Positions 5,838-64,000 of a stretch of DNA of 64,000 nucleotides are shown here, piece by piece. The stretch spans positions 310,001-374,000 of the forward strand of contig NW_026852163.1 of NCBI RefSeq assembly GCF_026571515.1, given 5' to 3'. The stretch comes from Ruditapes philippinarum (taxonomy: Eukaryota). Within the stretch, counting starts at the first letter, position 1; each line of letters begins with the position of its first letter. Under the pieces are notes generated by a model that was not told where the DNA came from, searched no databases, and saw only the letters and a program-made list of their open reading frames with translations. The translations under genes and the position numbers were made by a program.

Positions 5838-5897
5838 GGAGTGATGGCGATGAAGCAATTATGGAGGAACAAGAACATTTTGATGACATTACACAAG
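5838..5897 (+). CDS. Coding exon (xSDGDEAIMEEQEHFDDITQ), phase 1/1
   Basis: Acceptor ctttttctacctag; 60 nt open acidic frame; donor aag|gttcta is weak; phase fits the next exon. Confidence 0.6.
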
Positions 5898-47700: not shown

Positions 47701-50700
47701 TTAAATATGGTTGTATAAATTATAATAAACAAAGGAGATATGTTAGCACTTCAAGAAGTCGTCGCTGTATTTTTGCTGAATATTTTATCATTTTCATGTC
47801 CTAGACATGCAATCATTTTCCTGTTTGGGCTCAATATGTCCTGTGTTGGTGCACCATAAAACCAAACAAACAAGTCTTTTAACTTTAGCTTGGTAAGGAT
47901 TAAAAGTTGTAAAAAAATGTAAATAATATTTGAAATTTAGCAAATTTAGAAAGGAAGACTTCAAATAATTTGCATCGAAACAAGGAAAGATATTCTCTAT
48001 ATAAATATCTCTAGAAAAAATTATCTTTATTAATAAATTTATTATTTTTTGTATAGGTGCCAGTGGAATGGCTCCATATAATAACATTACAGGAAAGAGT
48101 AGACAGTCGGCAGAGTTTGGTGATGGTTATGTTATGGTGCCTAAACCGAATGAAATATTAGCTCCAACCATTGGTAACAGGTATTGTTTTTAATTATCAC
48201 TACTTTCTATGTTTAGCTATGGACAAAACTGTCCCTTGTCACCACATCTGGATCATCTTTTACAGAAACTCTTGTGAATGCCAATAAAGATCTTATTAGC
48301 TCGACTATTCGAAGAATATGAGAGCTATTGTAGTCGCCCCGGCGTCGGCGTCCGCGTCCGCGTCGGCGTCTGCGTTGGTTAAAGTTTTTTGTAAAGTCAA
48401 ATATCTCAATTATTACTTGAGATATTCAATTGAAACTTACAATACTTATTTATAGTAACAAGGTACATCAGATAGACAAGTTTGATAACTCTGCCTACAA
48501 TATTGACAGAATTATGCCCCTTTTTAACTTAGAAATTTTGGTTAAAGTTTTTTGTAAAGTCAAATATCTCAATTATTGCTTGAGATATTCAATTGAAACT
48601 TACAATACTTATTTATAGTAACAAGGTACATCAGATTGACAAGTTGGATAACTCTGCCTACAATATTGACAGAATTATGCCCCTTTTTAACTTAGAAATT
48701 TTGGTTAAAGTTTTTTTGTAAAGTCAAATATCTCAATTATTCCTTGAGATATTCAATTGAAACTTACAATACTTATTTATAGTAACAAGGTACATCAGAT
48801 TGACAAGTTTGATAACTCTGCCTACAATATTGACAGAATTTTGCCCCTTTGGAACTTAGAAATTTTGGTTAAAGTTTTTTTGTAAAGTCAAATATCTCAA
48901 TTATTGCTTGAGATATTCAATTGAAAATTAAAATGCTTTTTTATAGTAACAATGTACATCAGTTTGCAAAATTGCATAACTCTGCCTGCAATATTTGCAG
49001 AATTATTTGCCCCTTTGAAACTTAGAAATTTTGGTTAAAGGTTAAAGGTCTTCAAAGATATTTACTTGAAACTTTACACATGCACTTAGGGTCATAATTG
49101 GAGGGTCATTATTGTATGTCACTGACCAAGTTCCATAACTCTATCTTGCCTTAAGGCTGATTCATATCCCCTTTTCTACTTAGTCTCTTGGTTAATGTTT
49201 ACATGCAAGTTTTACATATCTCCATAACTATTAAAGATATTTATTTAAAACTTCACATATGCATTTAGGGTCATAATTGTAGGTCACTGACAAAGATCCA
49301 TAATTCTATCTTGCATTTAGGCTGATTTTTCTCCCCTTTTTCAACTTAGAAATTCATTTGTAAGCTGTTATCTCAATAACTACTGAAGGGTTTGTGCCTT
49401 TTTTGGGACAATTTTATGCATTCATAATAATAAAGCAGTGATTTACTTGATAAAACATCTTAATAACAAGCCTTTGTACCTTTTCTGTCAAATTTATGTA
49501 TTCATAGGTAATTAGTATTATTATACTCAATAAAACACCCTTGTGACATTACCTTCCGAATAGTCAAGCCAATACTGTTTAATTAGACTCTCTCTAAGGC
49601 CTATAACAAGAATTTATAAAAAAAATTAGCCCTTTTGTAAACTTAAAAAATTTAACAATATCAAGGCTCTTTTACTATCAAGCACTTAGAATAGTCGAGC
49701 GTGCTGTCCTACAGACAGCTCTTGTTTTATTATCCAATGTGTGTGACCATTGATCAAAGTAAAGTTAAAAATCACTGTCACTGTAATTGTATATAAAATT
49801 TGGGATAATAAATGTGCGAAGAAAACTAGAAACATCATGACTACAGACTGAACATTCTGGTGGCAAATAGCATGAAAACACAATAAACTCGTACTAAGAA
49901 GAATTTTTGTAGGCAAGAATTTCACTCCTGAAGTTCCTTCCATTAAACGATCTATCAATAACAGTAACTTCGTATTTCTGATTAATCCATGATTTCATTA
50001 ACAATAGTTTGCTCCATCAATTCAACTAAATGTACATGCATTTATTTTTCAAAAGTCTTAAATTTTTCGATACAAGAATCCATTTTGAGTCATTTACATG
50101 AACAGTTGCAAAAGCTATGATGTTGCATGTTCTAATTATATAACATTGTTTATATACAATTATCATAAATAAACAAATTTTTGCAACAAAAAGTTTCAAA
50201 AATTTGTCGTTTGAATTATAATTATAATTATTTTATATGCCAATGTATCAAAAAGTTTTGTTTATTTAATGTGTTTATAGAGATGTAGATGACATGTCTG
50301 ATTTGTCTGAGAATGAGGACAGAGATTTGAGCGACGAGGAAAGTTCATTCTACGCAAAAACAAGCGAAGAAATCGCTCGTATAACACGTAAAACTACCAG
50401 TTCCACTCAAGTTGCACCTCTCGCCAACATTTCAATCCAGACGGACGGGGAATCTGATTTGGAGTCCATGGTTTCCCGACCGAACTCTTCATTTTCCGAT
50501 TCTGGTTTCCGTACTAATCGACCGGAACAGTACAGTTTTGATAGTCGTGTTAGTGAAAAGTCAGCAGTAAAGTTATCAGAAGAACTGGTACCTGCAGAAG
50601 GTGACGATCCAAAGTTTGAAATTCCACCAGACAGTATAACCATCTCAGAAGGGGAACCAGCAAGGTTAACCTGTAGAGTGGCTGGTACTCAGCCTTTAGG

Positions 50701-53700
50701 TATTCAATCTTAAAATATTCATTAAATATAATTTCTTAGTAAAAATTTTGAATTTTACTCTTTAATCTGATGCTTTAGAATTTTTCTTGTATATTGATTT
50801 TGAATAAGGTGTACATGAATTGCATTTTAATAATTTGACATTTATGTTTTAAAGTTATGATTGAATGATGTAACGGCACCTGAGGTCTTTAATCATGAAA
50901 GCTGAACATTTTCCATATGACCATAGCAATGTGGATGTGACTTGAAACCCAATTCCAGAAAATAGATAACTAACTAAATAATCCAACTTTAGAAAACTAT
51001 ATTATCTGAATAAAAGATAAGATGTTTTGCAAAGATTTGAAATTATATCAAATTTTAAGTTTAGAATAGCTGCGTAAAATCAGAAAATTTTCAGATATGC
51101 TTCCTACATGTACAGTCAGACCTATGTTAAAAGACCATCTCTGAATAAAAAATACCCTGTAAATAAATGCCATTTTCTGATAACACTTCATTGATAATAT
51201 TGAAAAGGAGTAACCTCCAAATAAAGAGCACTTGTCTATAAAGGACATGTTCAGTCTCTATTTTAGGTGGCATTTTGTTCACAGGTTTGTTGTTACATAA
51301 TAATTTATTGGTCACATTATTATGACTCATTAGATAGTTTTTTTTTATAAATACAGGATTTATTTTCATCATGTGGTATGAAAATACAATTAATTATCGT
51401 TTATGTAATTTTCAGACGTATTTTGGTACAAGGTACGAGACGAGGTCGAAGAGTTGGAGAATTCAGAGTATTATGAGATTATCAAGGACGGCAGTCGTCA
51501 GAGTATAAACATGTACAACATGACGAAGGCCGACGCGGGCCAGTATATGTGTATGGCAATAAACGAGAAAGGCCGGTGCTGTCAATACTTTATACTCCAT
51601 GTAAAAAGTAAGAATCAATAAAGATTATTTCATTTTTATATGCCCGAAAGGGCATATTATGTTATACCCCCTGGCGTCCGTCTGTCTGTCCGTCCGTCCG
51701 TCCGTCTGTCCGTCCGTCCGTCCGTCCGTCCGTCCGAGCCAACATTTGATTATTATGAGCTTCATTCCGTAGTTAAATAAAGAACATAAACTCATAAAAT
51801 TTAAAATTAAGAGCTATTTTTTGTTTTTATGAGCTTATTTTGCTTATGGACGTTGGTCCAGGTGGTGTTTATGAGCTCATTGCCTCATAACCATCAAATT
51901 TTGGTCCGTCCGTCGTCCGTCCGTCCGTTAGCAATTTTTGGTTTTCCGGAGCATAACTCAAGTTCCATTTGGCCCACAATGTTAAAACTTCATAGGATGA
52001 TTGTCATATTGGTAGAAGACCCCTATTGATTTTGGGGTCAAAAGGTCAAAAGGTCAAGGTCACTATTACTTAAAACTGAAACGGTTTCCGGAGCATAACT
52101 TAAGTTCCATTCGACCCACAATGTTCAAACTTATAGGATGATTGTCCATATTGGGAAGAAGACCCTATTGATTTTTGGGGTCACAAGGTCAAAGGCCAAG
52201 GTCACTATGACCTTGATACTGAAACAGTTTCCGGAGCATAACTTAAGTTCCAATTGGCCCACAATGTTAAAACTTCATAGGATGATTGTCCATATTGGGT
52301 AGAAGACCCCTATTGATTTTGGGGTCAAAAGGTCAAAGGTCAAGGTCACTATTTCCTTAAAACTGAAAACGGTTTCCGGAGCATAACTTAAGTTCCATTC
52401 GACCCACAATGTTCAAAATTCATAGGATGATTGTCCATATTGGGAAGAAGACCCCTATAGATTTTGGGGTCACAAGGTCAAAGGTCAAGGTCACTTTTTG
52501 ACCTTGATACTGAAACAGTTTCCGGAGCATAACTTAAGTTCCAATTGGCCCACAATGTTCAAACTTCATAGGATGATTGTCCATATTGGGTAGAAGACCC
52601 CTATTGATTTTTGGGTCAAAAGGTCAAAGGTCAAGGTCACTATTACCTTATAACTGAAACAGTTTCCAGAGCAATAACTTAAGTTCCATTCGACCCACAA
52701 TGTTCAAACTTCATAGGATGATTGTCCATATTGGGAAGAAGACCCCTATTGATTTTTGGGGTCACAAGGTCAAAGGTCAAGGTCACTATGACCTTGATAC
52801 TGAAAACAGTTTCCGGAGCATAACTTAAGTTCCAATTGGGCCCACAATGTTCAAACTACATAGGATGATTGTCCATATTGGGTAGAAGACCCCTATTGAT
52901 TTTGGGTCAAAAGGTCAAAGGTCAAAGTCACTATTACCTTATAACTGAAAACAGTTTTTCCTGAGCATAACTTAAGCTCCATTCGACCCAACAATGTTCA
53001 AACTTCATAGGATGATTGTCCATATTGGGTAGAAGACCCCTATTGATTTTGGGGTCACAAGGTCAAGGTGAAGGTCACTATTACATTGATACTGAAAAAT
53101 ATGTTTCCACGCATAACTTAAGTTCCATTTGACCCACAATGTTCAAACTTCATAGGATGATTGTCCATATTGGGTAGAAGACCCCTGTTGATTTTGGGGT
53201 CAAAAGGTCAAAGGTGAAGGTCACTATTACCTTGATACTGAAAACAGTTGCCGGAGCATATGTTAAGTTCCATTTGGCCCACAATGTTCAAACTTCATAG
53301 GATGATTGTCCATATTGGGTAGAAGACCCCTATTGATTTTTGGGTCAAAAGGTCAACGGTTAAGGTCATCCTTACTAAAAAAAAAAAATACTTTCGGGCA
53401 TATAATGCTCCGCCTAGCGGTGCTCTTGTTGATAATTTTTTGGGGGTTAAGTTTTACATCGCACAGGTCATAAGGTGATCTTGGGTGCCCCTACCTGCAT
53501 TATTTCAGGCATAAATGGGCACCTGAGTAGAACCATTGACTGGAAAGTTTCCTCACATAAGAGAATTGGAAGTCCATGTCGGGATTTGAACCTACAGTGG
53601 TGAGGGGCAGGTGGTTTGACAGATGATTTAATATTTCATTTACAGTTTTACAATGAATTACTTAAAACTTTTTCTTTAATCATCGTTAAGATTAATTTTC

Positions 53701-56700
53701 AATGAACATTTTGCCAAAAAAAGAATTTTTCACTATGATATGTTTGAGACAGCAATTACATTTAAAAAAAAATTGCCAATATAATTTCAAGTAAATAAGT
53801 AATACATGTCAACACCAGGACAGGTTTACACTATTTTATTAGAATAATTAAATATTTTTCAAAAATAAGCTAAATCAGTATGGATTTTTTAAAAATGTAT
53901 TAGTTGCAAGTACTATAACCAGATATTTACCAGATGATTTTTTGGTATTCGTTGTTTTTTGTTTGTTTTTAATTGTTTGCCTATTTCTTATTGTTATTCA
54001 AGTATGAATGCATTATTTCAAGTGATCCATGTGCATTTCAGAAAACACAACAGAAATGAAGGCACCGGAATTCTTAAAGACTTTATCAGATCTAGAGGTC
54101 AAAGAAGGTCAAAGTGTAAAGTTCAGATGTAAGGTCAAGGGCATTCCTCAGCCAAGGGTCGTTTGGTACAAGGACGGCAAGATCCTGATGAACCAACTCA
54201 ATTATAAACTTGGTAAATATGATTTAATATGAATATATATAAATATAATATAATAATAATTTAATATCTTAGGAGTTTATAATATTTCTTAAAAAAATTT
54301 CTGTCTGGGATATCCGTGGCTTAGTGGTAAAGGTTGTTGACTTCAAACTGTTTGGCCCTTCAATGCTGTTGGTTTGAATCCTGCCAAAGATTTGAATTCT
54401 TTCTCGTGAGAAAGCAATCTAGCTAGCTTAAAGAACTTCAGTAGTTCTGCTTCAGTGTTTGCTCATGTCTGAAATATTGCATCTGATTCTGTTGTTTTCC
54501 TCCAAGCTAGAAAGTCTCCTTTTGACCTTTTCAGTGTAGATGTTGCTTAAAACCTTCTTTATTTGTAAAAGTGACTGTAGTTGAAAGCTATAGTTGCTAC
54601 AAACTTTATAGCAATATAATCTTAATAAAACAATCTCTGGACAATAGTTTATATCTTACAAGAAATAACAAGGAAAGATTTATTCATGGGCCCTATATCG
54701 ATGAAAAAGGATTATGAGAAAATGGTTGATATAGGAGAAGTACAAATAATGGTATCATAGTAACATATTTAAATTCTGTTATTAATAGAGAAGTTTGGTA
54801 ACCGTGACTACATCCTGGCAATTGACTCGGCTACGATGGATGAGGATGCCGAGTATTGCGCTTTGGCTAAAAATGTTGCTGGAGAGGCTCGCACCAGCGC
54901 ACAACTTCTTGTAGAGCCCAGAAATAAACCAGGTATGTCAGCTTTATTATTTGGTTTCGCGATGTATTGCCATCATGGTGAACTTGATTTTATAGATTTG
55001 AGGTGATATTATACTCATATACATAAATTATGCCCATATTTTCATTGGCAAGTTGAGCTGAATTATCTATATACATGTATTTCAAAAGATTGACTGTAAT
55101 AATGGTGATTTAAAACAGTTGATATAAAAAAAATGTTTAGGATAAAATATTATTTCGCTTCAAATATAAAAAGACTGCCTCACGTGTTTTAGGAATTGAA
55201 AATTACTGGTAAATTCTGATGGATATTTACAGAAATTTCTTTTGGCCACATGATTTATTTATCGTTTTTATGACGTAAATCATGAAATTCAAAGGAAATT
55301 ATGGCAAAGTGTAAACTCATTTTGACTTTCACCTGTTCACTCACCATATACCCTTAGATGGGCATAATGTCACTTAAAGAGTCAGTTCCTATTCTATTTT
55401 CAAACTTCATGTCCGATTTATATGATGCTTATAGTAACATTTTACTGACTTGAACATGATTTTATTTCATATATTTCCTTGTTTTACAGAAAGTGTTCCA
55501 ATTACTGCCAAATCTCCCAAATCACCAAAATCCCCAGAGAAAAAACAGTCTGCGGATGATTTCCCCGATTTATCGTACCTCGGATTGGGCCGGGCTAAAA
55601 CACGACCTGCTAAGTCCACATCATCATCATCATCATTATCATCTTCATTGTCATCATCAAATAAAACGCCAAAGTCTTCAGAGGACAAAACTAAGGATTC
55701 TGATTTGCATAATTTGAGTGAAAGAGTGGCGGAAACGAAAGAAAGTGTATCAAAAGTTGCCGAGGATATGCTGTCATCTTCAAAAGAGGTAGATTTGGTC
55801 TATTTGATTCTATATTTTGTATATGCTTAGGAAAATGTTTGAATTTTCTGTTAATCAGGTTAATATAATTATATAATATATGATATGAAAAAACAAAAAA
55901 ACAAAAAAAACATGACTATCTAACGGAACTCTTTTAACCACTGTTTCTTTCCTTCCTTACTTTTCGTAGAAGTAATAATTAACATGTTACTATGAAACAA
56001 TCTTTCACTGCCTTATTTTCCATACTTGTTTACTTTCACTGGAATATTTAAATGTATACAGGAAAATCTTTAAACAAAAGTAAAGAAATTCCTTCAAATT
56101 TCATTTTTATTTAGAATGAAAACACCTTAAAAGTGATGGCATTTGCAACTTAAAACAATTTTATTTTTGAAAACTTTTTTGACTTTTTATGACAAAACTG
56201 ACTCATATTTTCACAAAATCAGCAATTTTGTTTCATAAAAGACTTAATTTGAGTAACTTTGGCATTAGCTTTTAAGTTGGTATTTTATGAAAAGAAATTA
56301 AAAAAAAGAAAGCTGGATTTTAATGCTTGTACATTTAATTCAGAAATTAAATATTTGCAGGAATTTCTTTCTTTTTCACCCTGGTGAAGGCTATTAACTC
56401 TGTAGATATGGTAATTGTTTTGATCATAGATATCTGGAGATATAACTTACAAGATAAAATTTTTATCGAATGACGTCATGTCATTTTAATGTAATGTAAC
56501 CATTACATTTAATATAAAACATCCTGATATGTTACTTAAATGACGTCAATTGGAATAAGTGACTGTAATTTTGGGTTGAAAAGTGAAAATGCATGATAAA
56601 AACCTACCTCCTAATTATTTGTTGTGCTTACAGTTATGCAGATGTCAGGGCCCACCATATGATAATAATGTTCTGTTCAATGAACATGTTTCAAGCCAAT

Positions 56701-59700
56701 TTTAATTTGACTTCACATATGCCTCATTTTTAACTTGATTTGTTTATCTTAAACAATATAGGGATAATTAAAATTCCTTAAAGTGGTACAATAACTTCGA
56801 TTTTACAATGCATATATATAGAATAAACTTGGCTAGAAACATGTTTTAGAATATTAACTATATTAATATTTCTCGGAAATGGTTCTTTAAATGCTATTCT
56901 TCTGTACATGAAACACAGTGGGTTCACTATAGCTTTGTCAAATGATTTTGTTCCTGAATTCAAGAAATTATACGACAAATTAAACGTTAATAAACTTGTA
57001 GAATAATTTCTATGATAAGACTGGAGTTGTTTTAAATGGGAAACTTAAAATTTTGAACAAGCTGGGAATATTTTTTGAAATCGACACTCAATGTACATAA
57101 AAGAAAAATAACTGAAAATTGTAAGAACCTTTTTTTTTGGGGGGGGGGGGGTGGGGGGGGGTGTTTGTGGAACAAAATCATGTGACGCGGCTCACTTTGG
57201 TAACATTATCGTCACTCATGTTAATCCTATATCTCCGTGTACTAACCTCTCACAGTTAACCGAGATTGACAAAAGTATCGCAGCCATGGACAAGCTTCTA
57301 GAAGATCTAGAGTCGGACGTTTATTCTGTAAATTCAGACGACGTCGAGAACAATAATGAGGTTATAAGTACGCTCCCCGGCTCGGCTGTTCTAGAATATT
57401 CTAACCAATTTTATGTAATGGTGAGTGCTTGCTTAATGGGGGAACGCCCACGCTTGCTTTACACGGTGTGCGGAGAATTGACGCTTCAAAGTAAATTCTT
57501 CAGCATTAAGATATGGAAGGAGGCAAATGGTCAAACTGACCAAAAGTGGTTTCCTAATGCTAAAGATTTTACTTTCAAGCCTCTCTTTCAGTTTTTTTTT
57601 TCCGCTTAATTTTCTTTCTTTGCAGCTTTACAATGCCAATCTTCCTGAAAATAGTTTTCTTTTTCGTTATGAAGAATTTTTTAACCATTATAAAAAAAAT
57701 ACACTACGGTACCTTTAAAATGAAAGAAATTTCTCTGTATAATTATGTCCTCTTGGTGGAAGAAAAACTTACTGTAAAATCAGCAAAAAAAAAAAAAAAA
57801 AAACATTTTATATATGTATATTTATAATTTTTCAAAAAAAAAAATAAAAATCACTGTATATCAATCAGATCACTAAAATCACCATTTTGTTAAAGGGACT
57901 ACACTGAGGTTCTTTAACATGATGGGACTGAAAATATTTTTTCAAGATAAATGTACCATTTGATAGAGGTTTAGACAACTAATCTTTGTGCAACATTTCA
58001 GATCATTAGCTCACTTTGTTTTTCCAGAATAATTATTCAAATTGCACAAAAATGACCCAAAATGAAAAGCATTTAAACGCTTTTCACTCAAATTGGGCTA
58101 AGAAAAGCATAAAAATACGATTTTCAATTTATTTCAAAGTACAATTCTTAACTTTGCATATATTTCTGTTTAAAGTGCCGAAACTCATTTATGTAAGAAA
58201 TTCAAAAGTTATGTTTTTAGGCTTTTAAACCTCAGTGCCCTTTAATCACTATTTCTGAAATTAGAATTTTTATTTTACAATATAAGATTAATAGTTTTTA
58301 TAATAAATACATTTTTGAAAGATTTTACTTCATTTCACTACATCCCCCAGTATGATTTAACAGTAAGTGCTTGTGATAACCTCCCTTTGTTAGAATATGC
58401 TTGTGATTACCTCCCTTTGTAACTTATCCCTATACCTCCTTATTGTAGAAATGTGGGTTTTCTCCCCTTGCTAGATAGTAGCCTGTGTGTGTGTCCTAAC
58501 CCTTGACCTGGTGAAGCCTAAAGTGATTGACCTTTAGTCTATACAAATTTATTTTAGTTCAATTGTGTTGGAAGCTATAAGCTTATTGAAACACTCTTGA
58601 ATCCGTTCCTGAACCAGTCAGTACTAAGTAATGAGTGTAAAGTTTCTTTTTCAAGGAAACAACGGCTTGCCCCTGATGGGGGTTTGAACCCATGCTGTCA
58701 GCAATCCTTAGATTACTAGTCTGACGCGTTAACCACTTGGCCATGCTGCGGCCTTTGCCACCAGTATAGAGCTAGGCTAGCCTGAACATTGGTTCAGTCT
58801 GAACAGATTCTATTCTTTTGATTGCTTAATTTTGATATCTTGATATTGAAATACCTTAAAGATAGAATGGACTGTTCTAAAGTCACTTCAGGGCAAGTCC
58901 ATTATAAAAACTCAGCAGGTTAAGGGTTCAATATTGTTAAAATTGTTTTTTAAAAAGGATAATCCTGTTAATTCACCCTGTAATAGGTATTAGAGGTTAC
59001 GGGTTTTGCTAAAATGGTACTGGTATATTGTAATATAACGCATGTAAACGTTGTTATTTAAAAGAATGGGTTGTACATTACAGAAAGAGGCAGCTGAAAA
59101 TGTGCGGAAAGCGACAAAATCCACGCTGGATTATTTAAACAGTACAGAAGCATATGTGATGAGGGAGAAAGGTATTGGCGATGTTGCTACAAGTACACCT
59201 AGAAACTCGGACACGGAACGTGTATTTAACCCCGATAGTGATGCTTCACATATTGTCTGTGATACAAGTGACGTAACCGTGGAAACGTCTCAAGACGCGA
59301 GCGATGACTCTCATAAAAGTGAGGTGGTGTTTAATTTAAATCCAATGACAATAAATATGGGTGGTTTGAAAGATTCCAAAAATAGAGTTCAAAGTGGCAG
59401 ACGGACTTTATCTAGGTCAAGTTCAAATGAAGACTCAGCGGTTGCTAAGGACAACAATGAATCTCAACGTAGTGATACATTACATACGGACAGACAGAAT
59501 TCTAGTGATACAAGTAGTCATGTGACACATTCTCCAGATGTTACCATGGATACCTCAGATCTGAATGTTTCTCACGATGGTTCTAGTGAGAAATTAACAG
59601 TGAATTTAGGGCCGAAACGCGAGAATAAAGATCCGTACAGGAGAGATTTTTATGTCACAGATACCCCTATGATGCAGAGGAAATCTCCTATAGAGGAGAA

Positions 59701-61889
59701 ACAAAGAGCACGCACAGAGGAAAAGGTTTGTTGAGCTTTTAATACATCTAACATTCAGTTACATACAGAAGAAATTCAAAGTAAAAAACAAGTCGTTGTT
59801 TGTTTTGGTCAATATATTTATAATAAGACGAACAAATTCTTGATGTTTTCTGTCAGATTTTTCAAAATCAGATTTTGCAAACCCTGTGTTTCATGCTGGC
59901 GTGGCTGAATAAGGCTGGGGTATAGGTTTCAGCAGGGTAAAGGTAAAACTAACATGGATATAAGTGACAACTAAATCTTATATATTTCAGATATACCTGG
60001 CTGCTAATACTGTAACTAATCTAGAGAACAAAGTACAGTCACTACAAGATAAGATGAGGGCAGTAAATGCTCTACAAGAACAAGATAAATTAGGTCAACT
60101 AGAAAACGAAGTTGCCCAAACAGTAGCACATGTGGTGTCAACTGAAAAACAGGTACAGAGCATTTCCAAAGACTTTTGCACTAAAATATCAATTGTATAT
60201 TTATTTTGTTGCTGAAATTTGTAAAAAAAAATTGACTAACAGTACAACCTGTGAAAAGTAGCACCCATGAGAGATGTGTTTGTAAAAAGTTGCTTTTGAG
60301 AGGTGCATGTATTTAAGTAGCTTTTGAGAGGTGCTGCATCGGAGAGATTAAATTTATACTAAAGTTAAACTGTTAGAAGATTTGCTACTTGGGTAGTGAG
60401 AGGTTAATGCTTTACGGAGGACCATTGTGCAGAGGTTGGACTGTACTACAAACATTCATATGACTTGTTATAACATGAGAGACACGTATTTTAGTTGTTT
60501 TTGAGAGGTGTTTCTCTGGAGAGATTAAATTTATAGTAAAGTTTAACTGTTGGAATATTAAGCTACTCGGGTAATTAGAGGTTAATGGTTAAGGAGGTCC
60601 ATTGTGCAGAGGTTTGACTGTACTACAAACAATTTGTATAACACACATGTTTGTATTGTTATAACAACAAAATGTTGAAGTTAAAAATATTTATAAGATG
60701 TAAGTATAAGTACAGTCAAACATTGTGCAAAAAAGGCTCATTGTATTGCTAAAGGTTTTTGGATTCTTTCATGTGAGGAAGTTTTTCAGTTAACTCATGG
60801 AACGCCAGTGGTTGTAGAGAGGTCTTCTTCCACCAGTAAAGCTGGAAAGTGGCCATATAACCTTTACACTGTTATTGCAAACCAAACTTAAAACCTTACA
60901 TTTATTTTCAGGTTAAGAAAATAGAAGGGGATGTTTCTAAACTCAAAGCAACAAAACGTCAAGCACCAAGTGTTCCTCCAGCAAGCCCTAGAGAAAGGCC
61001 TGAACCAACTTTCCTTAAAGGTAAACAGAACAGTGGTAATGAATTGTGATAACTATAAATAATAAAAAATAATGAATAAACAAATAATATTTATAAAATC
61101 TTCATATTTACACACAAACCAAAAAATTTTTTTGCTCTGATGAATGCATCAAGACAGTTAAAGATTACTGAATTTTCTTATTTGTGTTGCTTGTTTGTTT
61201 ATATTCATAATTACACTGTAATTTCAAAGATTGCCATGAGTGAAATTCTCTCCTGGGTTGTTCCAATACTTTCATGATTGGAATGTGACCTTGATCATTC
61301 TTGACCTTGACATTGTCAAATTTTCAAAAATGTAACTTCACCTTTTGATTAGCCATTTTGATTCTACAATATTTGGAAATCTTCTATTTTAAATAAAAAA
61401 TAAGATATGTAAGAAACAACTACAACAAAAATAATAATTGTAATAATTTAAGAAAACAGCCAAATTATTGATATTTATAGTCAATATTAGAAATTTTTTG
61501 AAACCTTTTTTGAAAAAAGGGCTCTTTTGCCTTTGGAAACAGGTCCCTTTATGGGAAAGAAAGAAAGATAAACACTATCTTCAAAATTAATACGTAAATT
61601 CAGCATTTCAATTAAAGTTCAATGTTTGATTGTTTCAATTAAAAAAAAAGATAAAATGTCCATGACTATTCATACAATTGACCATTCATACACTGCTGGT
61701 GTAGAAAACGTAAGTTGTAACATTTAATCATTGTATTGTGTTATAGGCGATACAAGGGAACAGGATTTACCTGAGAGTCGTACAGAATTTAACGAGGAAT
61801 ATGGTTCTATAGAACTTCCTAGTGTTAACCGACTCAAAGCTATGTTCGGTGGGATAAAGAGCAGTGACAAAGATTCCTCCATTAAAAGG
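5838..61889 (+). CDS. MYRIP: Multi-exon gene (5'-partial, 3' end uncertain): MYRIP/melanophilin-like Rab effector with two tandem I-set Ig domains; 19 exons, ~1,490 aa in the window
   Basis: Exons 5838-5897, 10567-10704, 38598-38831, 42127-42279, 42932-43015, 44684-44787, 45617-45715, 46295-47327, 48057-48180, 50281-50699, 51416-51607, 54042-54212, 54789-54932, 55490-55788, 57256-57420, 59084-59725, 59991-60152, 60912-61020, 61747-61889 all have AG/GT boundaries and compatible phases. The C-terminal coiled-coil resembles, from memory, vertebrate MYRIP 'VYLAAGTVYGLE...LEDQVATAAAQVHHAELQISDIESRISAL'. The symbol means family-like, not proven orthology. Confidence 0.75.
5959..7478 (+). mobile_element. 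Helentron/HINE (pearl/CvA-like) element carrying ~7-8 copies of a ~166 bp satellite
   Basis: 5' agctcacctg...cagggtgagct hairpin; gtcc-like microsatellite; repeats marked by ctaccaagtttgttcaaat; 3' caggtgagc plus hairpin agggcca-tca-tggccct, then cttgtt. Confidence 0.88.
7615..7830 (+). mobile_element. tRNA-derived SINE family C (central tgtttccttnagcaagaaacttt domain, CORE/V-like)
   Basis: B-box gggttcaaaccc; homologous reverse-strand copies at 36145-36357 and 58536-58752. Confidence 0.75.
8546..8771. mobile_element. Palindromic MITE (~100 bp TIRs, GAG termini), Sola-like, copy 1
   Basis: Long TIRs gagc..catgacaaaaccaac...; flanks gaat/aaat. Confidence 0.85.
8996..9277. mobile_element. Degenerate palindromic MITE
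   Basis: atggtggccgattgcggccattttaaa / tttaaaatggacgctaccgatcaccat inverted repeat. Confidence 0.6.
10567..10704 (+). CDS. Coding exon (ADNESDSGYDPSLYSSF...KITDEDCE), phase 1/1
   Basis: Acceptor tttttgtttcag, donor g|gtaagt; 138 nt; core of ORF 10383..10799. Confidence 0.88.
10748..11105 (-). mobile_element. Kolobok-like element, copy 2 (inverted)
   Basis: agttgcatgcctccagat ... atctggagacatgctgct|ttaa; starts 44 nt after an exon donor. Confidence 0.75.
12280..12472 (-). mobile_element. tRNA-derived SINE family B copy, nested in a TTAA-type MITE (12221-12647)
   Basis: ggattcgaaccc (B-box rc); similar to 53440-53620 (-), 54310-54555 (+) and fragments at ~44800 and ~60760. Confidence 0.72.
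15309..15642 (+). mobile_element. Kolobok-like element, copy 3
   Basis: ttaa|agcagcatgccagat ... atctggaggcatgcagct|ttaa. Confidence 0.78.
17410..17470 (+). CDS. Candidate alternative first coding exon (MIRGRKEGKSYATWFIGFDN), phase-1 donor
   Basis: aaaATG start, 20 codons, then g|gtaaga; splices in frame to exon 38598. Confidence 0.55.
17754..17786. repeat. Poly-C homopolymer (33 nt)
   Basis: Direct observation. Confidence 0.9.
24338..24553. mobile_element. Palindromic MITE, copy 2
   Basis: Same TIRs; 4-bp TSD ATTT/ATTT. Confidence 0.88.
31823..32235. repeat. Minisatellite, 40-bp unit (gcattatttcctatttaacacttttagtttgccctcagaa), ~10 copies
   Basis: Direct repetition, degrading toward the 3' side. 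Confidence 0.92.
32750..32964 (+). mobile_element. tRNA-derived SINE family A with 13-bp TSD
   Basis: TSD ttattcggtttgt at 32737-32749 and 32965-32977; A/B boxes; (caaa)n tail. Confidence 0.92.
33020..33298 (+). mobile_element. Additional SINE-like element (5'-truncated)
   Basis: B-box ggttcgaatcc and (caaaa)n tail; lies between SINE A and MITE copy 3. Confidence 0.5.
33303..33515. mobile_element. Palindromic MITE, copy 3 (internal deletion in left arm)
   Basis: Same TIRs; TSD not clean. Confidence 0.85.
35287..35620 (+). mobile_element. Kolobok-like element, copy 4 (3'-degenerate)
   Basis: ttaa|agcagcatgc start and internal homology (gcccttact...cagtagaaat). Confidence 0.62.
36145..36357 (-). 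mobile_element. SINE family C copy
   Basis: Reverse-complement homology to 7615-7830 and to 58536-58752. Confidence 0.75.
37941..37995 (+). CDS. Candidate alternative first coding exon (MDRIYSVPLTELERCQKI) with GC donor
   Basis: ATG preceded by an in-frame stop, 18 codons, then ag|gcgagt; phase 1 fits exon 38598; local CpG-rich patch. Confidence 0.35.
38598..38831 (+). CDS. Coding exon (EIDNSLFSPPPPLGQ...DTKEQEKR), phase 1/1
   Basis: Acceptor ttctctaatttcag, donor g|gtaaat; 234 nt open, in a different frame from the listed 38601 ORF. Confidence 0.88.
41957..42131 (+). repeat. Tandem ~28-34 bp repeat that duplicates the splice acceptor (aaatttgttactatttttagacata)
   Basis: ~6 units; the last supplies the true acceptor at 42126. 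Confidence 0.9.
42127..42279 (+). CDS. Coding exon (DIYKEAFESTKRTEEAKFKVRFDNLLQEMQQSF...GSTS), phase 1/1
   Basis: Acceptor tattttttag-like, donor t|gtaagt; 153 nt. Confidence 0.9.
42932..43015 (+). CDS. Coding exon (YGELMSTYRGRVKDLLVSLSQRLELAVE), phase 1/1
   Basis: Acceptor ttattacag, donor a|gtaagt; 84 nt. Confidence 0.88.
44240..44370 (+). mobile_element. Degenerate 3' remnant of the 48294-type HINE element
   Basis: acagaaatgtgaccctttttgaactcagaaa ... atagccgagcatgctgtcc...actctt resembles the 3' end of that family. Confidence 0.55.
44428..44662. mobile_element. Palindromic MITE, copy 4
   Basis: Same TIRs; 4-bp TSD ATAT/ATAT. Confidence 0.9.
44684..44787 (+). CDS. Coding exon (SFDETCACNPSLTSQKVKLMISKLVEDRLGESLDL), phase 1/0
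   Basis: Acceptor tttatag, donor ttg|gtaagt; 104 nt. Confidence 0.88.
45617..45715 (+). CDS. Coding exon (TSDEAVSDLSSLSDESGEQKSLEDQIAQAVIAR), phase 0/0
   Basis: Acceptor tattttag, donor agg|gtatgg; 99 nt. Confidence 0.9.
46295..47327 (+). CDS. Large coding exon, acidic/disordered (VLELHRNQ...QDWRGNWIFK), phase 0/1
   Basis: Core of the 357-aa ORF; acceptor tcttgcag, donor g|gtttgt; 1033 nt. Confidence 0.95.
47383..47605 (+). mobile_element. tRNA-derived SINE family A with 12-bp TSD
   Basis: TSD acttggcaattt / acttggaaattt. Confidence 0.9.
48057..48180 (+). CDS. Coding exon (GASGMAPYNN...YVMVPKPNEILAPTIGN), phase 1/2
   Basis: Acceptor ttttttgtatag, donor ag|gtattg; 124 nt. Confidence 0.9.
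48294..49725 (+). mobile_element. Helentron/HINE element (same terminal family as 2457-3443) with a ~163 bp tandem array
   Basis: agctcgactattc / gaatagtcgagc sub-TIR; (gcgtcc/ggcgtc)n; near-identical units at ~48375, 48538, 48701 and 48866; 3' gctgtc-ctaca-gacagc hairpin. Confidence 0.88.
50281..50699 (+). CDS. Coding exon (RDVDDMSDLSE...; start of Ig domain 1: PKFEIPPDSITISEGEPARLTCRVAGTQPL), phase 2/1
   Basis: Acceptor gtttatag, donor g|gtattc; 419 nt; I-set A/A'/B strand pattern. Confidence 0.95.
51110..51296. mobile_element. Tc1/mariner-like MITE remnant (TA-CAGT terminus)
   Basis: tacagtcagacct ... acaggtttgttgtta; similar termini at 60240-60630. Confidence 0.5.
51416..51607 (+). CDS. 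Coding exon, C-half of Ig I-set domain 1 (DVFWYK...DAGQYMCMAINEKG...LHVK), phase 1/1
   Basis: Acceptor aattttcag, donor a|gtaaga; canonical Trp and D-x-G-x-Y-x-C-x-A-x-N-x-x-G motif. Confidence 0.95.
51635..53430 (+). mobile_element. Helentron/HINE element with (gtcc)n and ten ~145 bp tandem units
   Basis: sub-TIR tatatgcccgaaag / ctttcgggcatata; (gtcc)n at 51675-51735; array ~51943-53370; 3' hairpin ccgc-cta-gcgg and ctcttgtt end. Confidence 0.88.
53440..53620 (-). mobile_element. SINE family B copy, directly after the HINE element
   Basis: gggatttgaacctacagtggtgaggggcaggtggtttga matches the 12430 region. Confidence 0.7.
54042..54212 (+). CDS. Coding exon, N-half of Ig I-set domain 2 (APEFLKTLSDLEVKEGQSVKFRCKVKGIPQPRVVWYKDGK), phase 1/1
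   Basis: Acceptor catttcag, donor g|gtaaat; classic titin-like I-set pattern. Confidence 0.96.
54310..54555 (+). mobile_element. SINE family B copy (degenerate)
   Basis: A-box tggcttagtgg, B-box ggtttgaatcc. Confidence 0.7.
54789..54932 (+). CDS. Coding exon, C-half of Ig I-set domain 2 (EKFGNRDYILAI...DAEYCALAKNVAGEARTSAQLLVE), phase 1/1
   Basis: Acceptor attaatag, donor g|gtatgt; A-x-N-x-x-G ... A-x-L-x-V motif. Confidence 0.95.
55490..55788 (+). CDS. Coding exon, Ser/Pro/Lys-rich (ESVPITAKSPKSPKSP...MLSSSKE), phase 1/0
   Basis: Acceptor gttttacag, donor gag|gtagat; 299 nt; (TCA)n encodes poly-Ser. Confidence 0.92.
57256..57420 (+). CDS. Coding exon (LTEIDKSIAAMDKLLEDLESD...QFYVM), phase 0/0
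   Basis: Branch-like ctaac plus ctctcacag acceptor, donor atg|gtgagt; 165 nt. Confidence 0.9.
57894..58241 (+). mobile_element. Second TTAA-flanked element family (partial copy at ~13390-13657)
   Basis: ttaa|agggactacactgagg ... cctcagtgccct|ttaa; internal homology to 13390-13657. Confidence 0.65.
58536..58752 (-). mobile_element. SINE family C copy, nested within a TTAA-type MITE (58497-58930)
   Basis: gggtttgaaccc (B-box rc) and taaccacttggcca (A-box rc); the host element resumes at gcctttgccaccag. Confidence 0.8.
59084..59725 (+). CDS. Coding exon (KEAAENVRKATKS...RARTEEK), phase 0/0
   Basis: Acceptor cattacag, donor aag|gtttgt; 642 nt; core of the 227-aa ORF. Confidence 0.93.
59991..60152 (+). 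CDS. Coding exon, MYRIP/melanophilin-type C-terminal coiled-coil (IYLAANTVTNLENKVQ...VAQTVAHVVSTEKQ), phase 0/0
   Basis: Acceptor tatttcag, donor cag|gtacag; sequence resemblance to the MyRIP/melanophilin Rab effector C-terminus. Confidence 0.93.
60240..60632. repeat. Tandemly duplicated ~160-190 bp MITE-derived segment
   Basis: ggagagattaaatttata...ccattgtgcagaggtt(g/t)gactgtactacaaaca occurs twice. Confidence 0.75.
60912..61020 (+). CDS. Coding exon (VKKIEGDVSKLKATKRQAPSVPP...TFLK), phase 0/1
   Basis: Acceptor ttattttcag, donor g|gtaaac; 109 nt; continues the coiled-coil. Confidence 0.92.
61747..61889 (+). CDS. Coding exon (GDTREQDLP...ELPSVNRLKAMFGG...SSIKR), phase 1/0
   Basis: Acceptor gtgttatag, donor agg|gtaggt; 143 nt. 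Confidence 0.9.
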
Positions 61890-62271
61890 GTAGGTATTTT
61901 TATAAAATAAAAGTAGAAAATTTACAAAAAAAAAGAGAAAAATTTTAAAAGTGTGAAAGATTTTCTTAAAACATTTCACAAAATCTGCTTTTAAGTGTTC
62001 ACTATTTTATTGTTGTAATTAATATCACAGAAAAGTATTATCCTAATCTCAAATTTCTATGACACACATTGGTTTTGTCTTAATAGCAAAATTAAGAAAT
62101 AACTAAAATTTTCAGAAAGAAAGATTTGTTGCGTTCTTTGCATGAATATTAGTATTGATAAAAGACGGACCAGGTTAAATATGAATACAGATTTGTGTTG
62201 GAATAATTTTTTTAAAAAAATGGGCAAATTTTATTCAGAACATATTCAATGTTTTTAAGGATAATTATATG

Positions 62272-62475
62272 GTTAAACACTTAACCGGCTAGATTTATGT
62301 AATGAATTTGCCCTACTTTGAAATGGAACTGACCACAGTTTAAGAGATTTTAAAAAATCAGAAATACAAATCAAGCACCCCAATCTGCCAACAGTATAAA
62401 GCCTTGGCAGACTGCATTGAAGTGCAGGCTGGGCTGGCTCTATACTGGTGCAGTGGCAAGTACTATCGGTAATCA
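62272..62475 (-). mobile_element. Inverted copy of the same MITE family
   Basis: ggctctatactggtg is the rc of caccagtatagagcc. Confidence 0.6.
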
Positions 62476-62588
62476 CTTTTGGGTGTGCGAGCAGTATAAA
62501 GGAAATAAGTTTGAAACAATAGAGAGTCTCTTTTTTTTTGTTAGAAATCATGACATAATATATAAATATTATGGGATATAATCTGTAG

Positions 62589-62603
62589 GTTCAAAGGTCA
62601 TCG
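62589..62603 (+). CDS. Candidate 15-nt microexon (VQRSS), phase 0/0
   Basis: ctgtag|gttcaaaggtcatcg|gtaagt; consensus donor, weak pyrimidine tract; in frame with the previous exon. Confidence 0.5.
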
Positions 62604-62672
62604 GTAAGTTAAAGTAATGAGTTGTTTAAAAAAAACTAAATTTTGTTTGTGTTTGAATGACATTAAAACCAA

Positions 62673-63031
62673 GCATGTCTGTTTTTTTTCCCCATATAAA
62701 TAAACGGTTGTTGACTTACTGTTAAAGCATGCACATTGAAGCATGACTCTTACGTAACCCCTTCAATGTTGATTATATGTAATGAACTTTAAGTTTAAGG
62801 GATTTTAATGTAAAAAAATAAAATAAAATGAGTAATAACTACATAATATAGTCTTGGCATGCTGAACTGTAGCATGCCTAAAGACCTTATAAGAAAATAC
62901 TGACAATGTTATAAATGCATGACTGGGTGGTTTGAATTTAAACAAGTTTGATCCATTCTTAAGCAGTTTTTAAATATATACTGACTGATTATTTATTGTA
63001 ATAAGATGAATTATACTATATAGTATGCATG
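62673..63031 (+). promoter_or_regulatory. Intronic cluster of seven (T)GCATG RBFOX-type splicing elements
   Basis: GCATG at 62673, 62727, 62741, 62857, 62872, 62917 and 63027, lying between the two candidate microexons. Confidence 0.55.
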
Positions 63032-63230
63032 CAGTTCCCTCCCTTTGTTTTTGTAACCCCATCTTTGTTGTTACTAAAAAAATGTAGGCCATACCATCAA
63101 GCCTTGATTAAAGAAAACTGTACATAAAATTTAAGCTATATAATTATTATTGTGAAAATATTAGAAAGTTAAAATGTTAAATAAGGTAACAGTAAGTTTA
63201 CCAAGTGTTAAAGTACAATTTGACTTGCAG

Positions 63231-63263
63231 GAAGCACAGTCTGATGGAGGTCAACAAGAGCCT
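63231..63263 (+). CDS. Candidate 33-nt microexon (EAQSDGGQQEP), phase 0/0
   Basis: tttgacttgcag|gaagca...gagcct|gtatgt; frame-preserving. Confidence 0.55.
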
Positions 63264-63316
63264 GTATGTTGTATTGTTTAAATAGATGTTCAATAGTTGG
63301 TCTAGATTATCATACT

Positions 63317-63479
63317 AACCTGGGAAATCCCTCAAGATTATTTTAAAATCAGATTGTGGACCAGTCTATAAATGATGCTCTGTCATTGGTCAATTTCATA
63401 TTTTGAATCGGGTTCATCCAATCAGAAGCTTAAGATTTTAGACTGGTCTGCAATTTGAAGTTTATTAATTTTCAGGGTT
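63317..63479. mobile_element. Degenerate palindromic MITE
   Basis: cagattgtggaccagtcta / tagactggtctgcaatttg inverted repeat. Confidence 0.55.
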
Positions 63480-63845
63480 TGATTACAAAGCTTGAAATCA
63501 TAAACAGTGTTTGAGAAGAAACTGCATTATTTACACAAGAGTTACATTCTTTAACACTTAAACATAATAGAAGGGGAAAAACCCACAAGAATTGAGAATA
63601 GAATATAATTAAATTAACTGACTAAAGGTACCGATGGAATTTTGATGCTTTTACATGTAAAGGACAACTCAATTTGTTTGTGATTTCAAGCTTTCATTTA
63701 AATTCTAATCTTTCATATTTAAGCTTTTTTTGAAGGAAAAAAAAATTCTGTACATGTGTGAACAGTTAAACATCATTCTCTGTGTGACTTTCCATTCTTG
63801 ACAACCAATATTAGTGTGTGGATTTCTTTTCTCTGTTCTTTAAAG

Positions 63846-63887
63846 GATGCTGATGTTTCAAATAAAACTTCTACTACATTAATTTAG
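63846..63887 (+). CDS. Candidate terminal coding exon (DADVSNKTSTTLI*)
   Basis: Strong pyrimidine tract tttcttttctctgttctttaaag|; phase 0; TAG at 63885-63887. Confidence 0.4.
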   Translation, partial: DADVSNKTSTTLI

Positions 63888-64000
63888 TACATTACTTACA
63901 AAATCATCCTTAAACCTTGCTCTTACCTTCTGTTTTGTTGTTGTTGTTTTTTTTGCCTTTGATATTTGAAACAGTTTCTGTTCATTGTCTACCTACAAAT

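What the first reader, a model, noticed from the sequence alone, without database searches (positions are those of the whole stretch)
62589..63263. Two candidate microexons (15 and 33 nt) flanking a seven-copy RBFOX motif cluster: a possible C-terminal splicing switch
Seen: tag|GTTCAAAGGTCATCG|gtaagt (VQRSS) and cag|GAAGCA...GAGCCT|gtatgt (EAQSDGGQQEP), both phase 0/0, with seven GCATG in ~360 bp between them; a rough base-composition estimate gives well under one expected. Known: RBFOX binds (U)GCAUG, activating exons when bound downstream and repressing when bound upstream. Inference: one cluster could include microexon 1 and exclude microexon 2 in muscle or neurons, giving reciprocal isoforms that are invisible to the ORF track.
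Basis: partly seen in the sequence, partly recalled or inferred. Interest (0 to 1): 0.72.

Follow-up and report, generated by a model that had tools for sequence, protein, structure and literature searches.

The report
Microexon switch in clam MyRIP-like gene
A clam gene resembling the vesicle-tethering protein MyRIP splices in one tiny exon, the other, or neither at a spot inside a short protein motif kept across molluscs and worms, likely steered by a cluster of RBFOX binding sites, and a third tiny exon just downstream would cut off the protein's tail.

Summary
Both microexons are real and alternative. The gene is RefSeq LOC132751058 of Ruditapes philippinarum, a MyRIP/Slac2-like Rab effector with two Ig domains. 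Of its 6 isoform proteins, 4 carry exon 2 only, 1 exon 1 only, 1 neither, none both. RNA-derived contigs show one sample with exon 1 only and another with exon 2 only. The seven GCATG are well above chance and single-copy, but only two are TGCATG and most lie nearer exon 1's donor. RBFOX activation of exon 1 is plausible; direct repression of exon 2 is weakly supported. Exclusivity is not strict: Mercenaria models include both. Tissues could not be read. The exons are in-frame inserts 202 residues before the end, so they do not change the C-terminus. They split a junction-spanning motif ([IVF]-K-R | [IV]-H-S-I-T-A-R) found in bivalves, gastropods, a nemertean and an annelid; 21 of 29 taxa show an insert there. 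It fits a basophilic kinase consensus (untested). An unannotated 14-nt exon just past the window, conserved in a relative's DNA, would form a stop at the junction and remove the tail. A known kind of regulation in an unstudied gene family.

The parts
61747..61889 (+). Constitutive upstream exon; encodes the LPSVNRLKAMF motif and ends in I-K-R, phase 0 donor gtaggt
   Evidence: Maps to residues 1600-1646 of P0011; covered by contigs in all 4 runs
62589..62603 (+). Microexon 1, 15 nt, VQRSS; pyrimidine-poor acceptor (0.41), strong donor gtaagt
   Evidence: In RefSeq isoform X2 (P0001). X5 contig joins upstream exon, this exon and last exon; X1 uses its acceptor. Acceptor composition
62673..63031 (+). 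Cluster of seven GCATG (starts 62673, 62727, 62741, 62857, 62872, 62917, 63027; TGCATG at the last two); candidate RBFOX enhancer of microexon 1
   Evidence: No other mapped exon of the gene has more than 3 within 450 nt downstream (24 exons of P0011). Binding not tested
63231..63263 (+). Microexon 2, 33 nt, EAQSDGGQQEP (net charge -3); TGC at the acceptor, donor gtatgt
   Evidence: In RefSeq isoforms X1, X4, X5, X6. GT..AG joint 61889 to 63231 in X1 and X7; X7 continues into the last exon
63264..64000 (+). Start of the intron after microexon 2, which runs out of the window. Beyond the window it holds the candidate third microexon (14 nt, L003:995-1008; N-H-F-K plus TG, giving a TGA stop when joined to the last exon) and ends at the last coding exon (L003:3271-3879; 202 aa, begins I-H-S-I-T-A-R-S)
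   Evidence: Same 14-nt layout in relative locus L007:9698-9711; Dreissena and Mya proteins end this way; third exon not seen in RNA of this species. X5 and X7 contigs run into the last exon
59991..60155 (+). Exon encoding the MyRIP/melanophilin-like helical segment upstream of the switch
   Evidence: A segment of 4 orthologues passes the Pfam Rab_eff_C cut-off; the clam protein itself does not hit it
50282..54931 (+). Four exons encoding the two I-set Ig domains of the host gene

Best explanation
The two microexons are spliced alternatively (exon 1, exon 2 or neither) into a conserved motif near the tail of a clam MyRIP-like Rab effector, and the GCATG cluster likely recruits RBFOX to promote the weak exon 1, with exon 2 likely dropped in those cells. 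SHOWN: exon identity, frame, three isoform states, sample-level reciprocity in this species, motif enrichment, host-gene domains, and an optional short insert (mostly 5-11 residues) at the same protein position across molluscs and a nemertean. INFERRED: RBFOX binding and activation of exon 1 (about 0.65); that the same cluster actively represses exon 2 (about 0.35; competition or another factor is as likely). INFERRED effect (about 0.4): with no insert, the junction assembles hydrophobic-K-R | x-H-S-hydrophobic, which fits a basophilic kinase consensus (hydrophobic at -5, Arg at -3). Either insert moves that serine away from its arginine, and exon 2 also adds acidic charge. This would tune how the tail engages the cytoskeleton, as phosphorylation does for melanophilin. 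INFERRED (about 0.8 that it is a real exon): a third, 14-nt exon downstream removes the motif and the last 202 residues, with a stop at the final junction that would be expected to escape nonsense-mediated decay.
For: RefSeq proteins of this species: 4 of 6 exon 2 only, 1 exon 1 only, 1 neither, 0 both. Contigs: X5, 3111 nt, depth 120.8, upstream exon to exon 1 to last exon, no cover on exon 2; X7, 1914 nt, depth 25.1, upstream exon to exon 2 to last exon; X1 uses both acceptors. Dreissena: 6 exon-2-type, 1 exon-1-type, 2 neither, 1 truncated, 1 ending earlier, 0 both, of 11. Cluster statistics; whole intron 11 GCATG against a mean of 3.15, 1 of 1000 shuffles. Relative locus L007: 5 GCATG in the matching intron against 1.48, 22 of 2000 shuffles, and an exon-2-like 24-nt candidate. 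Positional rule: PMC10551640 (passages). Junction motif: Arg -3, hydrophobic -5 and Ser 0 in 29 of 29 taxa; L007 keeps the Arg with CGG instead of AGG, so it is not only the splice consensus. Of 23 distinct inserts only 2 leave a basic residue at -3 of that serine and 15 are net acidic. Consensus: PMC3989272 (passages). Third exon: exact pattern in 2 of 2000 shuffles of the L007 intron.
Against: 7 of 9 Mercenaria proteins include both exons and none has exon 1 alone. Only 2 of 7 sites are TGCATG and the nearest is 200 nt from exon 2's acceptor. In L007 only 2 GCATG lie between the candidate exons, its exon-1 candidate (IKPKSKT) has no sequence likeness, and the introns do not align (best blastn E 0.04). 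Other individuals carry different sequence inside the cluster (after 62753, before 62788, after 62821). 10 of 23 inserts put a new Ser/Thr three residues after the Arg, so insertion does not always remove a kinase site. The motif counts rest on a pattern written after seeing the sequences and on homologues found with this same region. PMC3989272 itself reports a consensus-matching serine that was not phosphorylated. Only 4 of 20 contig runs were laid, contigs drop rare forms, and a joint with a 15-nt side may not be listed. The third exon is in 0 of 6 proteins of this species and was not seen. An RBFOX gene was not located in this genome.
Confidence: 0.6

Rival explanations
1. Two independent cassette microexons with separate regulators: exon 1 under RBFOX, exon 2 under another programme such as Srrm234/eMIC acting on the UGC at its acceptor. 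They look reciprocal only because the samples are different tissues.
For: Co-inclusion in 7 of 9 Mercenaria proteins. Nothing forces exclusion: the intron between them is 627 nt and both keep the frame. The genome holds one SRRM_C (eMIC) match above the Pfam cut-off. UGC and weak pyrimidine tracts mark SRRM4-type microexons (PMC10551640 passages).
Against: No both-exon form in 6 Ruditapes or 11 Dreissena proteins. X5 has high cover with exon 1 and none on exon 2. The TGC here is simply the end of a TGCAG acceptor.
Confidence: 0.3
2. At protein level the inserts act as spacers or charge patches between the LPSVNRLKAMF and IHSITAR motifs, tuning a binding surface without any kinase being involved.
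For: Position and short length are kept while insert sequence is not; 15 of 23 inserts are net acidic and 10 of 23 restore a Ser/Thr at Arg+3.
Against: Hydrophobic -5, Arg -3 and Ser 0 are all kept across the junction in 29 of 29 taxa (with the selection caveat), which a pure spacer does not require.
Confidence: 0.35
3. Competing RNA pairing drives the choice: 62711-62724, beside two GCATG, pairs either with exon 1's donor or with 63187-63197 upstream of exon 2.
For: An 11-nt perfect inverted repeat; duplexes of -12.3 and -16.8 kcal/mol; a global fold pairs it with the donor at 0.99.
Against: Shuffled introns do as well in 29 of 200 and 19 of 200 cases. Three runs (X1, X2, X7) show only an allele at 62719 that weakens both pairings. 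No matching pair was seen in L007.
Confidence: 0.07
4. The exons are real but the GCATG cluster is incidental or binds some other factor.
For: The cluster is not conserved as such in L007, and it tolerates indels within the species.
Against: Enrichment far beyond chance, the top 5-mer is the known RBFOX element, it sits next to a verified alternative microexon, and the same 5-mer is enriched in the matching intron of a relative.
Confidence: 0.1

Closest known systems
RBFOX-regulated alternative exon pairs (C. elegans egl-15 5A/5B and unc-32 7a/7b; mammalian FGFR2)
   Same: Two alternative exons at one position with intronic (U)GCAUG. ASD-1/FOX-1 repress egl-15 5B from the upstream intron and are needed for unc-32 7a (PMC3585155 passages).
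   Different: Those are mutually exclusive exons (that they are longer is recalled). Here they are 15 and 33 nt and unrelated in sequence, with a skip-both state and co-inclusion in a relative. In unc-32 the site lies downstream of both exons, so position alone does not fix the outcome. That FGFR2's sites lie between its exons is recalled, not read here.
Neural microexon programme (SRRM3/4, Srrm234 eMIC; RBFOX versus PTBP1)
   Same: Frame-preserving exons, weak acceptor, UGC near the 3' splice site of exon 2; RBFOX promotes some microexons (PMC10551640 passages).
   Different: Neural specificity is untested. Exon 2 is 33 nt, above the common 27-nt limit and within the 51-nt one (limits recalled). 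Insert sequence is not conserved.
MyRIP (Slac2-c) / melanophilin (Slac2-a) Rab27 effectors
   Same: N-terminal FYVE_2 (Slp-homology) domain and a segment matching Rab_eff_C in orthologues. [quoted passage not shown] Melanophilin phosphorylation biases actin versus microtubule binding (10.64898/2026.09.01.748553, abstract only).
   Different: Two internal I-set Ig domains, about 1850 aa, and a tail (LPSVNRLKAMF ... IHSITAR) outside the Rab_eff_C match. The one MyRIP-like fragment retrieved (P0148, unnamed; likeness to MyRIP recalled) aligns significantly only to residues 1499-1583. No four-arginine actin patch like MyRIP's was recognised by eye. 10.1101/591974 (passages) notes very low MYRIP conservation outside vertebrates.

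Membership tests
Alternative microexon | Very short exon with AG/GT sites that is found spliced into mRNA | tested here: met
Alternative microexon | Included in some transcripts and skipped in others | tested here: met
   Three states among 6 proteins; opposite choices in X5 and X7
Mutually exclusive exon pair | Exactly one of the two exons in each mRNA (never neither, never both) | tested here: not met
   Skip-both isoform X3 in this species; both exons in 7 of 9 Mercenaria proteins
Mutually exclusive exon pair | A built-in block to co-inclusion (steric spacing, frame shift, conserved RNA pairing) | tested here: not met
   627-nt intron, both phase 0; pairing no better than shuffles
RBFOX target exon | (U)GCAUG enriched in the flanking intron | tested here: met
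RBFOX target exon | Motifs conserved across species | tested here: inconclusive
   One relative locus only: 5 GCATG in the intron (22 of 2000 shuffles), 2 between the candidate exons, no alignable intron blocks
RBFOX target exon | RBFOX protein present in the organism | tested here: inconclusive
   PF12414 (Fox-1_C) gave no match, and nothing rang in the controls either; the RRM was not searched
RBFOX target exon | Direct binding and a splicing change on RBFOX loss | not testable with these tools
   Needs CLIP/EMSA and knockdown or a minigene
Neural (eMIC-dependent) microexon | Neuron-enriched inclusion that depends on Srrm234 eMIC | not testable with these tools
   Tissue labels are coded; an SRRM_C match exists in the genome
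MyRIP/melanophilin (Slac2) family | N-terminal Slp-homology (FYVE_2) domain and no C2 domains | tested here: met
   FYVE_2 residues 9-125, E 1.1e-34; no membrane-binding C2 family listed
MyRIP/melanophilin (Slac2) family | Rab_eff_C (PF04698) homology | tested here: inconclusive
   Not hit by the clam protein; above cut-off in P0046, P0104, P0128 and P0143 over about 70 of 717 profile positions
MyRIP/melanophilin (Slac2) family | Binds Rab27, myosin V/VII and F-actin | not testable with these tools
   Biochemistry needed; orthology tree not built
Basophilic kinase site (PKD-type consensus) | Hydrophobic at -5, Arg/Lys at -3, Ser at 0 | tested here: met
   Skip isoform I-K-R-I-H-S; 29 of 29 taxa; consensus from PMC3989272
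Basophilic kinase site (PKD-type consensus) | The serine is phosphorylated in cells | not testable with these tools
   Needs phosphoproteomics

The most novel reading that the evidence does not exclude
An ancient splice-controlled signalling slot in the lophotrochozoan MyRIP-like protein: an intron sits exactly inside a kinase recognition motif, and cell-type microexons switch that site off, rewire it (for example R-R-S-S in mussels) or delete the whole tail. In clams a single RBFOX cluster flips the cell between states, and a 14-nt exon carries a fail-safe stop (TG plus A when spliced, W then stop when not). Vesicle track choice would then be set by splicing rather than only by phosphorylation.
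Probability: 0.25. Interest if true: 0.72.

Novelty: new member of a known kind. Interest (0 to 1): 0.47.

Why it matters
It gives a compact, testable case of likely RBFOX-driven microexon choice in molluscs. My searches listed no paper on RBFOX or microexon regulation in that group (ranked listings only). It also marks a functional site in an uncharacterised MyRIP-like family: an insertion point kept from clams to ribbon worms while the inserted sequence turns over freely. If the kinase-motif reading holds, it links splicing to the phosphorylation switch known for melanophilin. It also adds a likely exon missing from this species' protein models.

Tried and rejected
Raw reads X21-X24 laid on 10 kb: repeats swamped the tables, the last two coding exons had depth of about 0-3, and no exon joints were among the rows shown; uninformative. 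The look-up of sequencing runs listed no holder on record as RNA; the contigs used are treated as RNA because they join across GT..AG introns. Only 4 of the 20 contig runs were laid. Candidate last exon at 63846-63887 (good acceptor, 13 residues then stop): in none of 6 proteins, and the contigs over it are unspliced; isoform X6's length matched it by coincidence, since X6 has a different N-terminus. Multi-repeat HMMER hits to the motif (7 checked, e.g. P0113, P0126) are DUF285/BspA-type proteins and were rejected as spurious. L008-L012 from the metagenome scan are weak matches and were not used (5 of 6 loci). RNA-pairing model: not above shuffles. Small variants miss the covered GCATG copies, but too few to mean anything. 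WGCATGM context (recalled motif): 5 of 7 sites against 27 of 58 elsewhere in the window, not persuasive. PF12414 search was blank and uninformative. ESM Atlas gave no usable hit. No earlier scan notes matched. No structure prediction was run, because the region looks low-complexity outside short motifs.

Full report
Observation. The cluster is far above chance: 0.33 expected per 360 nt, 0 of 5000 intron shuffles, and 4 of 20000 in a window-wide scan. The DNA is single-copy and the motifs lie in no tandem array. Two of the seven are TGCATG. They sit 70-424 nt after exon 1's donor and 200-554 nt before exon 2's acceptor. None of the 24 exons mapped from P0011 has more than 3 GCATG in the 450 nt downstream (exon 1 is not in that list, its 7 come).

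Host gene. The window is G000:C650:310001-374000. The last coding exon lies 3.3 kb past the window. It matches RefSeq LOC132751058 of Ruditapes philippinarum at 100%, on a contig of the same length. The protein has FYVE_2 at 9-125 and two I-set domains. Orthologues with this layout occur in bivalves, gastropods, the nemertean Lineus and the annelid Owenia. Four of them pass the Pfam cut-off for the MyRIP/melanophilin C-terminal family over a short segment, while the clam protein does not. I therefore call it MyRIP-like; orthology was not tested with a tree.

The exons are real and alternative. Of 6 distinct proteins of this species, 4 carry exon 2 only, 1 exon 1 only, 1 neither and 0 both. I laid contigs from 4 of the 20 contig runs, from 4 studies. 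In X5 a 3111-nt contig at depth 120.8 runs from the upstream exon through exon 1 into the last exon, with no cover on exon 2. In X7 a 1914-nt contig at depth 25.1 joins 61889 to 63231 across GT..AG, and a contig end at 63263 continues into the last exon. X1 shows both acceptors in use (depths 5.2 and 16.2); the exon 1 contig appears to run on into the next intron, so it is probably a splicing intermediate. X2 covers the upstream exon but not exon 2, and lists no joint to either. No exon 1 to exon 2 joint was listed, but a 15-nt side may be too short to list, 4 loose-end rows were hidden, and contigs drop rare forms. Tissues are coded and unknown. The raw-read lay was uninformative.

Relatives. 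Among 29 taxa or unnamed entries, 21 have a protein with a short insert at exactly this position and 13 have both inserted and uninserted forms. The 8 without an insert are represented by one or two sequences each. Only 15 of 40 and 15 of 16 members of two clusters were listed, and short fragments were left out. For these species the insert is seen at protein level only. Dreissena resembles Ruditapes: two alternative inserts, never both, in 11 proteins. Mercenaria does not: 7 of 9 proteins carry both and none exon 1 alone. So the pair is largely reciprocal in this species but is not a mutually exclusive pair in the strict sense, and neither spacing (627 nt) nor frame enforces exclusion.

One relative's DNA. 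A metagenome contig, L007, holds the orthologous region at 73% identity for the upstream exon. Its intron has an exon-2-like 24-nt candidate and a possible exon-1 counterpart with a gtaagt donor but no sequence likeness. It has 5 GCATG against 1.48 expected (22 of 2000 shuffles): 2 after the exon-1 candidate and 3 just before the last exon, where Ruditapes has 2. The introns do not align otherwise. This supports RBFOX-type elements in this intron generally, not conservation of the seven-copy cluster. Other individuals of this species also carry different sequence inside the cluster.

A third exon. Mya has an isoform ending N-F-Y-K-W after exon 2 and Dreissena one ending P-F-A-K directly after the upstream exon. 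Both Ruditapes (L003:995-1008, about 1 kb past the window) and L007 (9698-9711) have a 14-nt AG/GT segment encoding N-H-F-K and P-F-Y-K followed by TG. Joined to the A that starts the last exon this gives TGA; read through the donor it gives W then stop. The shared pattern appears in 2 of 2000 shuffles, a looser one in 73 of 2000; the pattern was drawn from the two sequences themselves. This exon would remove the last 202 residues. It is in none of the 6 proteins of this species and was not seen in RNA here, so it is inferred. Short truncated ends at this junction also appear in Lineus, Haliotis and Biomphalaria proteins; those in Babylonia and Mytilus look like intron read-through.

What the inserts likely do. 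Without an insert the junction reads [IVF]-K-R | [IV]-H-S-[IL]-T-[AG]-R. Hydrophobic -5, Arg -3 and Ser 0 occur in 29 of 29 entries and Lys -4 in 27 (that script's position labels are offset by one). The count is biased, because the pattern was written after viewing the sequences and homologues were found with this region. L007 encodes the Arg as CGG rather than AGG, so it is more than a splice-site by-product. The motif fits the PKD consensus given in PMC3989272 (passages); that CaMKII and related kinases share it is recalled. Of 23 distinct inserts, 2 leave a basic residue at -3 of that serine, 15 are net acidic, and 10 place a new Ser/Thr at Arg+3. Both Ruditapes inserts break the site. Insertion thus always displaces the original Arg, but often rewires rather than removes a site. 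MyRIP binds actin through its C-terminal region (PMC4760305, passages), and melanophilin's phosphorylation state biases actin versus microtubule binding (10.64898/2026.09.01.748553, abstract). A splice-set equivalent is my preferred but untested reading; a plain spacer or charge effect is nearly as likely.

Regulation. Downstream RBFOX binding promotes inclusion and upstream binding favours skipping (PMC10551640, passages). Exon 1, with a pyrimidine-poor acceptor (0.41; five other acceptors of the gene 0.36-0.68) and seven downstream sites, fits activation. Repression of exon 2 is less well placed and is contradicted by Mercenaria. In C. elegans unc-32 the relevant UGCAUG lies beyond both exons (PMC3585155, passages), so position is only a guide. 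An eMIC-type domain match exists in the genome, which keeps a separate programme for exon 2 open. An RBFOX gene was not located (uninformative). An RNA-pairing model did not beat shuffles.

Novelty. RBFOX-flanked alternative exons and microexons are known kinds, and exons 1 and 2 are already in automated gene models. Searches for microexon or RBFOX work in molluscs and for invertebrate MyRIP listed nothing on this gene by title or abstract start. These were ranked listings of at most 20 papers from an open-access library, and no supplements were read; microexon catalogues in supplements could include it. 10.1101/591974 (passages) states that MYRIP is poorly conserved outside vertebrates. New here are the conserved insertion slot within a kinase-like motif, the sample-level reciprocity, and the unannotated truncating exon.

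Noticed in passing
L003:995-1008 (about 1 kb past the window end): Conserved 14-nt candidate exon that creates a stop at the junction with the last exon; absent from this species' RefSeq proteins.
   Followed up: yes
window 62753-62821: Contigs of X1, X2 and X5 carry other sequence after 62753, before 62788 or 62791, and after 62821: an indel polymorphism inside the GCATG cluster. Whether the extra sequence holds more GCATG is unknown.
   Followed up: no
window 62711-62724, 62602-62612, 63187-63197: One element can pair with exon 1's donor or with a stretch upstream of exon 2 that itself contains a GTAAGT donor-like site; not above shuffled controls.
   Followed up: partly
window 63846-63887: Good acceptor followed by 13 codons and a stop ending T-T-L-I (resembles a PDZ-binding end, recalled); no isoform or splice support.
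   Followed up: partly
window 17410-17469: Alternative first coding exon (RefSeq X6) inside a 28-kb intron; this isoform lacks the Rab-binding FYVE_2 region.
   Followed up: no
window about 5840-5896 and 57256-57420: Two further cassette exons of the gene (20 and 55 aa, skipped in X4 and X5) with no sense-strand GCATG within 300 nt upstream or 450 nt downstream.
   Followed up: partly
window 61979-62600: A 643-nt contig in X5 (depth 11.8) covers the intron before exon 1 in the sample that includes exon 1, suggesting slow splicing or retention of this intron.
   Followed up: no
proteins P0047, P0048, P0069, P0071 (Mytilus): The mussel insert turns the junction into K-R-R-S-S-L or K-R-K-S-S-L, which resembles a PKA site (consensus recalled).
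   Followed up: no
L013 (G000:C5305:147509-147658, minus strand): SRRM_C (eMIC) match above the Pfam cut-off after an RS-rich stretch, so the clam likely has the microexon activator domain.
   Followed up: partly
L003:9642-9714, minus strand: tRNA-Thr(AGT) about 5.8 kb downstream of the gene's stop codon.
   Followed up: yes
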